This document shows, in pieces, positions 35,646-47,410 of a DNA stretch of 64,000 nucleotides. Every line of letters starts with the position of its first letter. Position 1 is the stretch's first letter. A program made the position numbers and the translations under genes. The notes below the pieces were generated by a model. It had not been told where the DNA came from, did no database searches, and was given only the letters and a program-made list of their open reading frames with translations. This stretch comes from Eledone cirrhosa (taxonomy: Eukaryota), in contig OZ024741.1 of assembly GCA_964016885.1 (NCBI GenBank), positions 270,506,001 through 270,570,000 of the forward strand, read 5' to 3'.

Positions 35646-38600
35646 TCAAGAACGAGGCCATCTAGAGTGGCATTTAATATGGTTGGTGAAGTCATCTACA
35701 GTCTGAAATGTAAGGCCACAGCATTCAAATGTGAATTTGGTGTTGGAGCCATCATCTGTCTCCGAGGAATTGTCTTCGGCTGCGGACAGCTGATCTTGGC
35801 TTTCTAACACTGTATCCGATCTACTACTACTACTACTACCTGGTCCAACACTCGTGTGTTGCTCCATGTACTTTTTCAGGTGGTTGTGTTTTGCTGGGGA
35901 TTTTCTCTTGGAATGTTTGCTGCTGGTGTTGTTTCTGTATGTCCGTGAAGATTTGCAAATGACTAAGTGTTCTGATATTGGGCCGTCGATTTTTTCTCCG
36001 CAGTTGTAACATTTGAGAATGTCAATCTGTTTTGCATGGCTTTTACGGTGATCCACTAGCAAAGGTATGCCGAGAAAAGGTTTGCCGCAAATATCACAGG
36101 CAAACACAGCACGAGGTTTGCTGACAGAATCTCCTCCAACCCTCTGCTGTTGCCGTTGTAAGACACCTGGCATTTTTAACTTGGGGGCTTTATTTGCAGG
36201 AAGGGACTCATGAAGAAGCAAATTTGGTTTATCTTTATGTAGAGGACAACGAGTTAAATGGATTCCTAAGTCATTCACAGATTCACACACTTTCCTACAA
36301 CATCTGCAGTGCAAGGTTGCCGTAAAAGACTCAGTGTGGCACTGACGATGGAGCAGCCCTTCTTTAATGGAAGGAAGTTTCTTGCCACAAAAATCACATA
36401 TAAATAAACCTTTTGTTTGGCTTTTGTTTGGAGAAACAAGTTTTGGACTAGAACCACTTAAACTCTTTCTATTTGTAAATTCTCCTTCACTGCTTATTCC
36501 AGACACAGAAGGAGCACCACTTGAGATACATGTTAGCAAGTGTTCTGCCATACAGCCTGGTTGGACAAAAACAGCCGAACATAGACGGCATTTGTATGGC
36601 ATTTCATTAGTATGGCCTCTTCGGTGACGCATTATCCAGTTGCTACCTGCAAATGTCTTTCGGCAGAAATCACAGTGAAAAAGCCTCTGGAGTTTTTGTC
36701 GGTCTGCAAACACAAACCGGCGCCAGGAATGTGCTGTACCATTTCTAATTATCATTGGAGGTGATGTTACTGTTTTACTATTGGTTCTTGGAGATTCATA
36801 ACCTGTACGCCGACTCATACAACAAGAAGCCAAATGGTCTGCAAACACACCAGATCGATAAAAAACAGTATCACATCGGCGGCATCTAAATATTCCTTCC
36901 TCTTGCACATGATCTTTGCGATGTTTCATTAATCTTAAGCTATGACCAAATCTTTGACTGCAAAAATCACATTTGTACATCTTATCGGAATTATGCTGTC
37001 TAAGAGAACCTTCAGGACTGCCATCTTTTGTCTGTAAACGGCACCAGCTGAGATGTTGGGCTAGTTCTTGTGAAGTAGGTAAGATTCGCCTGCAGTTACG
37101 GCACCAAAGACTAGTATCATTAATGTGTGTTTTTCGGTGTTTTATGAGACTACTTGCAACAGCAAATGCTTCTTCACAGAAGTCACACCGAAATTTAGAC
37201 TTTTTACATATCAAATTGAGACTCTCTGCAAATTTCTCCAGTGAACTGCCAAACTCACTGTCATCAGAACTATGAGCATCATTTCCCTTTTCATCACTTT
37301 TTTCAACATTTTCTACAGTTTGAGAAGTGCCTAAATCAAAATTCTGCTTAATTTCTTCTCCAAATGGAGACTGGTTTTCCATCCCACGACTTCCTTCCTG
37401 TTCTGTATGTTCACACTTTGTTTGGAATGGTGAAATATTCTGATAATTTTTAAGAAAAACTGCATTATTTTTTACTGAGGTGCAATCAGAAAGAGACATC
37501 TCTGCTTGGATAGAAGTCTTTGGTATTAGTGGTGAGTTAAAAGCTTCAGTAGACAACATATTGTCTTTTAAGTCATGTCTATTTTCATTGTATATATTCT
37601 GTTGATTTCCAGAGTCTGAACTAGTTGGGAAATTTTCACAACTTTCCTGTATAACCAATTTGCTCTTTTTGTAAGGTTGCTGAAGCAACGCTGCTTCATT
37701 TGACTGGTTAAAGTAACCTTTATAGTCAAATGAACTCTTCCGTTTTTCATTGGTAAGTTGCATTGGTGAGACAGAGGGGGAGAAAGATTTCAAATCAGGT
37801 GATTGGTTGTTACTGCTGCTGCTTGGCCCCACCCTACTGGACGGAAATCTGTTACTTACAGTCTCTGATGTGTTGTTCAGTTGATTTAAAGAAGGCAAAA
37901 GGTGAAGTTGGCTTTTAGCAGCCACATTATCATACTTGTTTAACTTTACATGGGGTTTTGATTCTTCACTCGGAGAATTCCCTGTGTCCTTATGACAGCT
38001 GTTAGGAGGGCTGCCTCTCTGTTGGTTTATCTTCCAAGGACGATGTATCTGTTGAGTGCATAAACGACACTTTTTCTTTCCATCCTCCACAATAGTTAGT
38101 TGCCTACCGGGGAAATGTAGGCCGCAGTAATCACAAAGTGGAAATGTATTTAGAAAACGTTTACATTCAGCTGACCGTCCAGTGGAATGCGGTTTCGAAG
38201 CTGCTAAAGCTTCAGCGTTCATCAGTGCTCTTTTCGCTATCTTATAGTCTTTCTTTGTTGGCCGTCTGCAATTTGTTAAGTGTGATGCCATTTGATGTGA
38301 GTGTGCAAAGCCTTCACCACAGACACGGCATTCAAAAATCGTTTCTTGTGTGTGCATTTTCCTGTGACGAACAATCCAGTTGTTACTACCAAAATCTTTG
38401 CCACAAAAGTCACAAGTATAAATAATTTTATTTTCCTGGTGACTTTCCATTGTTGATGTTTCAGAAATTTTGTTTCCAAGAATAAATCCCATGTGTTTGT
38501 TCTGGGGTCGATTTTGGCTCTCATTGGAATTTTCACAAGAGGGAAACTGGTTTGAATTAGAACTGTTAGGCAACTGTGAATTTCCTTTTGTTGATGAATG

Positions 38601-46981: not shown

Positions 46982-47410
46982 CTTAGTTACATCGATAACT
47001 TGTTTGTTCTGGTTACTACTTCTTCTACCAACATTATCATCACCTTCCTCTTCCTCATCATCATCTTCTTGGGAAGAAGTAATGTTATTACTGCACAAAT
47101 GACTGCTTAGTCGGGTGGTTTCACTGAAGGTCTGCAGACAAACCTGACACTGGATCAGAACTTGTAGGCTGTGACAGTGTCGCATGTGTAACCTGAACTT
47201 GCTCACTGCTGTCGATGGAAACGTCTGCGAACATAGAACACAACAAATGTCACACTTTTCACAAGATATTGGTACCAAACCTTTTGGCTTCTCTTTGGCA
47301 GAGGCACTGTCGGAAATTTTCACTGCTTGTTTTGAGGTTTGTGCTTGCTTTTGCTGCCATTTTGTAGATGGTTCCCCCAACAATCCATCTTCTGAAGAAC
47401 TATTAGCCAT
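46982..47410 (-). CDS. Giant multi-zinc-finger protein, first coding exon (143 aa)
   Basis: ATG in a good context (GTAATGG). Finger pair CVLC...HMRHCH + CQVC...HLC. Donor AAG|GTATGG at 46982/46981 is phase 0, matching the next exon. An upstream acceptor with a long polypyrimidine tract at 47543-47541 implies 47540-47411 is 5' UTR. Confidence 0.8.

What the first reader, a model, noticed from the sequence alone, without database searches (positions are those of the whole stretch)
35646..47410. About 2850-aa zinc-finger protein built from a repeated C2H2+C2HC doublet with a Trp-bearing recognition helix
Seen: the fingers are not TGEKP-linked tandem arrays. About 16-18 modules each pair a C2H2 finger (C-D-[FY]-C-x3-F-x-S-x2-W-[IV]-M-R-H-R-x2-H) with a C2HC finger (C-x2-C-x3-F-x5-[LM]-x2-H-L-x2-C), separated by long S/T/N/P-rich linkers. 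Examples are CDFCFLSFASVSWVMRHRREH+CQVC...HLGVC, CDFCGQAFASNNWVMRHRRLH+CRNC...HLIVC and CDFCRKTFAGSNWIMRHRRGH+CRLC...HLLTC. Nine modules keep the W. PLNLS (about 38970-38984) matches the CtBP-binding PxDLS-type motif. Established: cephalopods expanded tandem C2H2 genes, and C2HC fingers in FOG/U-shaped proteins mediate protein contacts. Inference: this may be an uncharacterised multivalent reader or co-repressor scaffold whose unit is a two-finger domain.
Basis: partly seen in the sequence, partly recalled or inferred. Interest (0 to 1): 0.75.

Follow-up and report, generated by a model that had tools for sequence, protein, structure and literature searches.

The report
Coleoid sixteen-unit paired zinc-finger scaffold
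Octopuses, argonauts and cuttlefish share an uncharacterised giant protein made of about 16 spaced copies of an unusual two-zinc-finger unit, which is predicted to fold as one block and likely lets the protein grip chromatin at many sites and recruit the gene-silencing partner CtBP.

Summary
Observation confirmed. A two-coding-exon minus-strand gene (47410-46982 + 43757-35646) encodes 2846 aa with 16 C2H2+C2HC doublets, 9 with Trp at helix position +3, and one PLNLS. It looks single-copy here and has uncharacterised orthologues in Octopus, Argonauta and Sepia: fingers 47-89% identical, linkers 12-66%. Cuttlefish records show the same intron in spliced and unspliced forms. No non-cephalopod relative was found. 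Trp at +3 is rare (8 of 5,228 other fingers). The doublet carries its own signature (finger A: aromatic C+2, hydrophobic +5; finger B: G/A/S at +5, Leu after His). An AlphaFold model of one module does not take the DNA-wrapping geometry that a canonical octopus pair takes (TM about 0.43 versus 0.80-0.98), which supports a two-finger unit. The Trp probably faces the ligand rather than the finger-finger interface. It is not a FOG, tCWCH2, UBZ or ZNF512 family member, but it most resembles ZNF512/512B in design (spaced pairs plus a co-repressor motif; finger order reversed). Best reading: multivalent chromatin-binding repressor scaffold (0.45). Ligand and CtBP binding are untested. New variant of a known kind; interest 0.5.

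The parts
46982..47410 (-). Coding exon 1 (143 codons; ATG at 47410, in-frame stop upstream at 47425); two atypical fingers aa 57-106 (47242-47093). Likely exon start at acceptor 47540.
   Evidence: Octopus models begin at the orthologous Met
43758..46981 (-). Phase-0 GT-AG intron, 3.2 kb, holding a LINE RT fragment and a very high-copy repeat
   Evidence: same intron position in cuttlefish records
35646..43757 (-). Coding exon 2 (2703 codons plus stop) holding all 16 doublets
   Evidence: bases 41300-43757 seen in genomic contigs with one variant letter
43599..43745 (-). Conserved N-terminal atypical pair (finger ending HRW without last ligand, then C2H2), aa 148-196
43536..43562 (-). Basic stretch KKKKKRLKK aa 209-217, NLS-like (inferred)
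43365..43526 (-). Doublet 1 (no W)
40818..42392 (-). Doublets 2-6, class I: finger A S/N-x-x-W-V/I-M/I-R; finger B R/K-S-x-E/D-L/F/I-G/S-H/R/K (42392-42249, 42155-42006, 41828-41685, 41219-41073, 40964-40818)
40098..40259 (-). PP[HY]SP repeat, aa 1310-1363, not kept in orthologues
39435..39974 (-). Doublets 7 (octopod only) and 8, no W
39231..39377 (-). Doublet 9, class II (GSNWIMR)
39033..39095 (-). Lone finger A (a full doublet in decapods)
38970..38984 (-). PLNLS, CtBP-type motif, kept in place in all 4 octopod orthologues aligned
38268..38750 (-). Doublets 10 and 11, class II (SNNW); doublet 10 is the one modelled
36822..37187 (-). Doublets 12 and 13, no W
36528..36674 (-). Doublet 14, class II (GSNWIMR)
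35961..36398 (-). Doublets 15 and 16, no W (decapods have W in 16)
35667..35729 (-). C-terminal CC-type finger, conserved in all 7 orthologues aligned

Best explanation
This is a conserved coleoid-cephalopod gene for a 2846-aa protein of 16 spaced C2H2+C2HC doublets that are predicted to fold as packed two-finger blocks and likely act together as a multivalent chromatin-binding scaffold that would recruit the CtBP co-repressor through PLNLS. Shown: gene structure, doublet repeat, orthologues, conservation. Predicted: the two fingers do not line up as a DNA-wrapping tandem pair. Inferred: finger A's aromatic at C+2 and hydrophobic +5 dock on finger B's small +5 and invariant Leu (half of a Zic/Gli/Zap1-type interface). 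This would leave the W/R helix of finger A and the R/K..E/D..R/K helix of class I finger B free to read a short, repeated DNA word, with avidity from 9 or more near-identical helices on flexible spacers, as proposed for ZNF512/512B. Inferred origin: one Kruppel-type pair whose last His became Cys was duplicated internally before octopods and decapods split.
For: Orthologues in O. sinensis, O. bimaculoides, O. vulgaris, Argonauta and Sepia pharaonis. Finger regions 89/75/50% identical against 66/39/13% in spacers. For 13 of 16 modules the best Sepia match is the positional counterpart, and 12 of those 13 beat the best sister module. W is kept in Sepia in 8 of 9 modules. Finger A: F/Y at C+2 13 of 15 vs 0 of 116, M/I/L/V at +5 15 of 15 vs 10 of 116, R/K at +6 12 of 15 vs 44 of 116. 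Finger B: G/A/S at +5 15 of 15 vs 9 of 116, Leu after His 15 of 15 vs 14 of 116 hydrophobic, E/D at +3 10 of 15 vs 4 of 116. Doublet model pLDDT 92, pTM 0.72 has 0 Foldseek matches at E<=0.001 and TM 0.41-0.46 to DNA-bound pairs; a canonical octopus pair (pTM 0.62) has 126 such matches, TM 0.80-0.98, rmsd 0.5-1.7 A. The class I finger B helix resembles the Zif268/Egr1 helix shown. Most W modules are net basic. PLNLS is kept in octopods; decapods carry P[IM]NLS and PQDLS elsewhere (2 or more loose motifs by chance: 0.008). PLNLS is needed for CtBP binding in ZNF750 (PMC4173152, passages). ZNF512B's four spaced pairs bind DNA and compact chromatin in proportion to pair number (PMC11602157, passages).
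Against: No binding, localisation or expression experiment exists. Only one module was modelled, from a 16-row alignment, without coordinates in view; the control may match well because AlphaFold has seen such pairs (46-68% identity to solved chains). Structural likeness to packed pairs is weak: Zap1 ZF1-2 Z 2.4, rmsd 3.4, 53 aligned; ZNF512 2ctd Z 2.0, 41 aligned. The linker has canonical length, unlike the long tCWCH2 linkers (11.8 aa; PMC2837044 section 27). W at +3 is almost absent from ordinary C2H2 fingers (8 of 5,228), which fits a non-DNA ligand as well. Finger B base-contact positions are poorly conserved between octopod and decapod (-1: 4 of 11, +3: 3 of 11, +6: 3 of 11 identical). 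PxDLS-type motifs sit at different places in the two lineages and there is only one in this protein.
Confidence: 0.45

Rival explanations
1. The doublets are protein- or modification-reading modules (Di19-like or FOG-like in mode), and the protein is a CtBP-recruiting adaptor that reaches chromatin through other factors without reading DNA.
For: Exposed W plus hydrophobic +5 is atypical for DNA reading. The model is not DNA-wrapping. 7 of 16 modules hit Pfam zf-Di19 weakly, best E 0.00056, and Di19 is not among the 25 families shown for the 16 control pairs. Di19 double fingers read ADP-ribosylated protein (PMC12407064, passages).
Against: Di19 scores are under the cut-off (20.5 vs 27.5 bits), and the control list was cut at 25 of 88 families, at 6 members. 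FOG and UBZ signature residues (recalled) are absent. R at +6 and the class I finger B helix look like nucleic-acid contacts.
Confidence: 0.3
2. The modules bind RNA (nascent, structured or repeat-derived), with the exposed Trp stacking on bases and the flanking Arg residues holding the backbone.
For: The W flanked by R (RWVIRHR) is kept across coleoids. Spaced packed fingers; weak whole-model alignment to the dsRNA-binding ZFa fingers (Z 2.8, rmsd 3.2, 47 aligned).
Against: That match is at background level among unrelated folds. Pfam zf-C2H2_jaz hits 2 of 16 modules against 15 of 16 controls. No RNA-related domain elsewhere. A CtBP motif points to transcription.
Confidence: 0.15
3. It is an ordinary multi-cluster C2H2 transcription factor: each pair wraps DNA as a normal two-finger tandem (about 6 bp), and the His-to-Cys change and the Trp are lineage quirks.
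For: Canonical linker length with TGEKP vestiges in 4 modules; D and R match the octopus consensus. All solved-structure sequence hits are Kruppel-type DNA binders. Fish ZNF1035-like proteins also end some pairs in C2HC (6-8 per protein).
Against: Non-recognition positions C+2, +5 and H+1 are systematically changed (p 1e-12 to 1e-16), and the model differs from DNA-bound pairs while the control does not.
Confidence: 0.1

Closest known systems
ZNF512 / ZNF512B (vertebrates)
   Same: Spaced pairs of one C2HC and one C2H2 finger, long disordered spacer, NLS, short co-repressor motif; DNA binding and chromatin compaction scale with pair number (PMC11602157 passages); long linkers aid repeat recognition (PMC11526998 passage); targeting of pericentric repeats (PMC13537249 passage).
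   Different: Order is reversed (C2H2 then C2HC); 16 pairs, not 4; PLNLS rather than a NuRD motif; Trp at +3; no sequence kinship shown; structural match weak (2ctd Z 2.0).
tCWCH2 packed pairs (Zic/Gli/Glis, Zap1, PacC, Aebp2, Zfp106)
   Same: Two adjacent fingers forming one unit with an aromatic at C+2 and a hydrophobe after His (PMC2837044 sections 27, 28). Here finger A has F/Y at C+2 and finger B has L after His; the model aligns over 53 of 55 residues to Zap1 ZF1-2 (Z 2.4, rmsd 3.4).
   Different: No Trp between the Cys pair in either finger; finger A has Arg after His; linkers are short; second finger is C2HC; the unit is repeated 16 times.
PxDLS/PLNLS zinc-finger repressors (ZNF750, ZEB1, ZNF217)
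   Same: PLNLS in a low-complexity spacer of a zinc-finger protein (PMC4173152 passages).
   Different: Only the short motif is shared; finger architecture is unrelated; binding untested.
Di19 double finger (RNF114/RNF166, plant Di19)
   Same: Two-finger domain of similar length; 7 of 16 modules hit PF05605 weakly over most of the model.
   Different: Below the curated cut-off; no RING or UIM; last ligand is Cys.
Cephalopod expanded tandem C2H2 genes
   Same: Finger A shares the CD.C and H[KR] consensus and linker length.
   Different: Those are TGEKP arrays in clusters with no C2HC and no W+3 (16 loci), described as largely independent octopod and decapod expansions (PMC13218726 passage); this gene is one old orthologue group.
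FOG / U-shaped CCHC fingers
   Same: C2HC ligand set, dispersed fingers, PxDLS-type motif (recalled).
   Different: FOG GATA-binding fingers have His-x4-Cys with aromatic residues before the last Cys (recalled); here H-L-x2-C in 13 of 16 and no Tyr in any of 16.

Membership tests
Classical C2H2 (Kruppel-type) finger fold | C-x2-C-x3-F-x5-hydrophobe-x2-H-x3/4-H/C with beta-beta-alpha fold | tested here: met
   Pfam zf-C2H2 107 bits, above cut-off; model with two helices at pLDDT 92
TGEKP tandem arrays (octopus expansion) | Three or more fingers in tandem joined by TGEKP | tested here: not met
   0 TGEKP in the protein and in 10 orthologue records; fingers in pairs 19-360 aa apart
tCWCH2 | Trp between the two Cys in both fingers | tested here: not met
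   Finger A C+2 is F/Y/V/L/I, finger B is variable; no W; definition PMC2837044
tCWCH2 | V/L/I/M after the first His in both fingers; linker longer than canonical | tested here: not met
   Finger B L 15 of 15 but finger A R 15 of 15; linkers 5-9 aa
tCWCH2 | Two fingers share one hydrophobic core | tested here: inconclusive
   Model is not DNA-wrapping and aligns weakly to Zap1 1zw8 (Z 2.4, rmsd 3.4, 53 aligned); contacts not visible
ZNF512/ZNF512B | Pairs ordered C2HC then C2H2, four pairs | tested here: not met
   Order is C2H2 then C2HC, 16 pairs (PMC11602157)
ZNF512/ZNF512B | Binding of repeat DNA and chromatin compaction | not testable with these tools
   Needs EMSA/ChIP/imaging
FOG/U-shaped | GATA-binding CCHC finger, His-x4-Cys with aromatic residues before the last Cys (recalled) | tested here: not met
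   H-L-x2-C in 13 of 16; no Tyr between His and Cys in 16 of 16
UBZ ubiquitin-binding C2HC | Asp after His-Leu (recalled) | tested here: not met
   No Asp there in 16 of 16; zf_UBZ hits 3 of 16 modules versus 13 of 16 controls
Di19 double finger | Pfam PF05605 above its cut-off | tested here: not met
   Best 20.5 bits vs 27.5; 7 of 16 weak hits
CtBP-recruiting repressors | PxDLS-type motif, conserved, outside folded domains | tested here: met
   PLNLS kept in 4 of 4 octopod orthologues aligned; P[IM]NLS and PQDLS in 3 of 3 decapod records aligned
CtBP-recruiting repressors | Physical CtBP binding and repression | not tested
   Needs co-IP and reporter assays

The most novel reading that the evidence does not exclude
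The C2H2(W+3)-C2HC doublet is an undescribed, independently folding reader domain invented in the coleoid ancestor. Arrayed 16 times, it reads a short repeated (perhaps CpG-methylated) DNA word at scattered sites and seeds CtBP-dependent silent chromatin on cephalopod repeats, a convergent counterpart of vertebrate ZNF512/512B with the fingers in the opposite order.
Probability: 0.15. Interest if true: 0.8.

Novelty: new variant of a known kind. Interest (0 to 1): 0.5.

Why it matters
Cephalopod zinc-finger work centres on the large, young TGEKP clusters. This gene is different: old, apparently single-copy, kept module for module across octopods and decapods, with no relative found outside them. 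If the doublet is a folded unit with an exposed Trp helix, it adds a new packed two-finger domain and a natural test of what Trp at +3 reads. If it silences repeats, it gives a concrete, testable candidate for how these transposon-rich genomes target repression.

Tried and rejected
RNA check of the junction in this species: no RNA holder listed; the four runs are genomic, as their contigs run from exon 2 into the intron; neither bears on expression. Complex prediction of two copies of a doublet: no answer (score 0.01, mark 0.32), not used either way. ESM Atlas held neither sequence tried. Paralogue searches in this genome with two queries (150 candidates scored each, of 10,611 and 11,711) gave only this gene and TGEKP arrays; counts are lower bounds. 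Distant relatives: the doublet profile against 1.84 billion representatives put 3 orthologues on top. Rescoring the 176 proteins in hand gave best-domain 68-78 bits for the orthologue group and at most 48 for the rest, but only 150 of 125,135 hits were listed, ranked by whole-protein score, so a relative with few modules could be hidden. The W-only profile (99-2000 aa proteins) gave 12 ordinary ZNFs, none with W+3. The N-terminal region found only the two decapod proteins and missed even the octopod ones, so it is insensitive. No fold match above Z 3.2, which shows neither a new nor a different fold. The module tree is mostly unresolved at depth (52 columns); only pairwise orthology was used. 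Invariant D and R were rejected as special. Literature: cephalopod+C2H2+C2HC gave 1 Sall paper, LOC106875039 gave 0, the Trp/position 3 search gave 1 unrelated paper, and the coleoid single-copy search gave 2 genome papers. The primary ZNF512 paper (Nature 2024) is not held, so it is cited only through other papers' passages. Supplementary gene tables of cephalopod genome papers were not examined and may list this gene. Earlier findings of this scan: none.
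Full report
Observation. The minus strand holds an open frame of 2714 codons at 35646-43790 and a short upstream frame at 46883-47425. Joining donor 46982 to acceptor 43757, both phase 0, gives 2846 residues. The protein has 16 C2H2+C2HC doublets, 9 with Trp, separated by 19-360 residues, plus degenerate pairs, a lone finger and atypical terminal fingers. 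PLNLS lies at 38984-38970. Genomic contigs of public runs cover 41300-43967 with one variant letter, so that part of the frame is no assembly artefact, though these runs may be the source sample.

Gene model. Octopus sinensis, O. bimaculoides and O. vulgaris models and the Argonauta model join the two exons at the same place. In the cluster that holds Sepia pharaonis CAE1176287, one 138-aa record runs from exon 1 into an intron-like tail and another begins with an intron-like stretch before exon 2, both breaking at the orthologous point. Full-length joined records are seen on 82 and 34 contigs. I infer a conserved phase-0 intron and spliced transcripts in cuttlefish. The junction was not seen in RNA of this species.

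Distribution. Orthologues were found in three Octopus species, Argonauta, Sepia and one unnamed decapod-like record, all with automatic names. Finger regions are 89%, 75% and 47-50% identical against 66%, 39% and 12-13% in spacers. For 13 of 16 modules the best Sepia match is the positional counterpart, and 12 of these beat the best sister module, so the internal duplications predate the octopod-decapod split (about 270 million years, recalled). A doublet profile against 1.84 billion representatives ranked three orthologues first. Among 176 proteins rescored, the orthologue group had best-domain scores of 68-78 bits and the others at most 48. Only the top 150 of 125,135 hits were seen, so coleoid restriction is likely, not proven. 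Two searches of this genome found no paralogue, only TGEKP arrays.

Anatomy of the unit. Fifteen of the 16 modules were compared with 116 canonical fingers from this genome (the 16th has a shortened finger B). The invariant Asp and Arg are the ordinary octopus consensus, and the linker has canonical length with TGEKP vestiges in four modules, so the unit likely descends from a Kruppel pair. What is new: finger A has F/Y at C+2 (13 of 15 vs 0 of 116), W at +3 (9 vs 0) and a hydrophobe at +5 (15 vs 10). Finger B has G/A/S at +5 (15 vs 9), Leu after His (15 of 15), E/D at +3 (10 vs 4) and Cys as last ligand. W at +3 occurs in 8 of 5,228 fingers of the non-orthologous hits and is kept in Sepia in 8 of 9 modules; decapods also have it in module 16. 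There are two W classes. In modules 2-6 finger B reads R/K-S-x-E/D-L/F/I-G/S-H/R/K, like the Zif268 helix; modules 9-11 and 14 have [GS]-[SN]-N-W in finger A. Against a DNA role for finger B, its -1, +3 and +6 residues are identical between octopod and decapod in only 4, 3 and 3 of 11 modules.

Structure. The AlphaFold model of doublet 10 has pLDDT 92 and pTM 0.72. It gave no Foldseek match at E<=0.001 and TM 0.41-0.46, rmsd 6-15 A, to tandem pairs; the best TM was 0.52, to Snail1 on importin beta. A control made the same way from 16 canonical pairs of this genome (pTM 0.62) gave 126 such matches, TM 0.80-0.98. So the doublet is predicted not to take the DNA-wrapping geometry. Whole-model alignments to Zap1 ZF1-2 (Z 2.4, rmsd 3.4, 53 residues) and a partial one to ZNF512 (Z 2.0, 41 residues) are weak. 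Caveats: one module, memory of solved pairs in the control, and no view of contacts. In tCWCH2 pairs the C+2 aromatic packs on the residue after the partner's first His (PMC2837044, sections 27 and 28 read). This doublet has half that pattern (A C+2 with B H+1), plus complementary large and small residues at +5. I infer that these form the interface and that W+3, on the -1/+3/+6 face (established finger geometry), points at a ligand.

Co-repressor motif. PLNLS is kept in place in the four octopod orthologues; decapods have P[IM]NLS and PQDLS elsewhere. Chance is 0.03 for one strict motif here and 0.008 for two loose motifs in Sepia. PLNLS is required for CtBP binding by ZNF750 (PMC4173152, passages). 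Binding here is untested.

Mechanism. Most likely (0.45): a nuclear scaffold whose packed doublets each read a short DNA word weakly, gain avidity from repetition on flexible spacers, and bring CtBP. The design parallels ZNF512B, whose four spaced C2HC-C2H2 pairs bind DNA, oligomerise and compact chromatin in proportion to their number (PMC11602157, passages; PMC13458389, PMC11526998 and PMC13537249, passages). Rivals: protein or modification reader (0.3; weak Di19 hits in 7 of 16, under cut-off; PMC12407064 passages), RNA binder (0.15), ordinary tandem-pair transcription factor (0.1).

Membership and novelty. It is a C2H2-class protein with a CtBP-type motif, but fails defining features of TGEKP arrays, tCWCH2, ZNF512, FOG (recalled features), UBZ (recalled feature) and Di19. 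C2HC-ended pairs also occur, without Trp and inside tandem arrays, in fish ZNF1035-like proteins. Searches of the held literature found no description (listings only for those papers, apart from passages of PMC13218726). Verdict: a real, old, uncharacterised coleoid gene built on an undescribed finger pair; a new variant of the known 'spaced finger pairs plus co-repressor motif' kind; interest 0.5.

Noticed in passing
window about 43950-44160: Very high-copy short repeat in the intron: contig depth about 800,000 against 11.6 for the exon; SINE- or MITE-like, not identified.
   Followed up: no
window 45818-46588 (-): LINE reverse-transcriptase fragment inside the intron (RVT_1, E 2.9e-6).
   Followed up: partly
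window 50083-50493 (-): Open frame with three spaced C2H2 fingers with S-x-A-G-L helices, weak ZNF512 finger hit (E 0.0022), 2.7 kb upstream of the gene; probably the tail of a LINE ORF2 (inferred).
   Followed up: partly
window 4464-12113: Several broken LINE copies with an RT domain followed by a PHD-like finger.
   Followed up: partly
window 15185-15727 (-): Frame resembling a Tc1/mariner transposase C-terminus (recalled resemblance; no Pfam hit).
   Followed up: partly
window about 28800-35500 and 56800-62400: Multi-kilobase TA-rich microsatellite tracts (GC 6-13%), one directly downstream of the gene.
   Followed up: no
window 47537-47490 (-): A 15-codon upstream ORF in the 5' part of the first coding exon, just after the acceptor at 47540 (read).
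   Followed up: no
P0003 (Argonauta), between doublets 2 and 3: About 350 residues of MKKVSKQ-type repeats inserted in a spacer that is 31 aa here, suggesting spacer length is free to vary.
   Followed up: no
window 43692-43745 and 35667-35729 (-): Two atypical fingers conserved in all 7 orthologues aligned: one ending HRW without a last ligand, and a C-terminal finger with adjacent Cys-Cys.
   Followed up: no
P0009, P0011, P0034: Fish ZNF1035-like proteins carry 6-8 C2H2-then-C2HC pairs inside tandem arrays, without W+3.
   Followed up: partly
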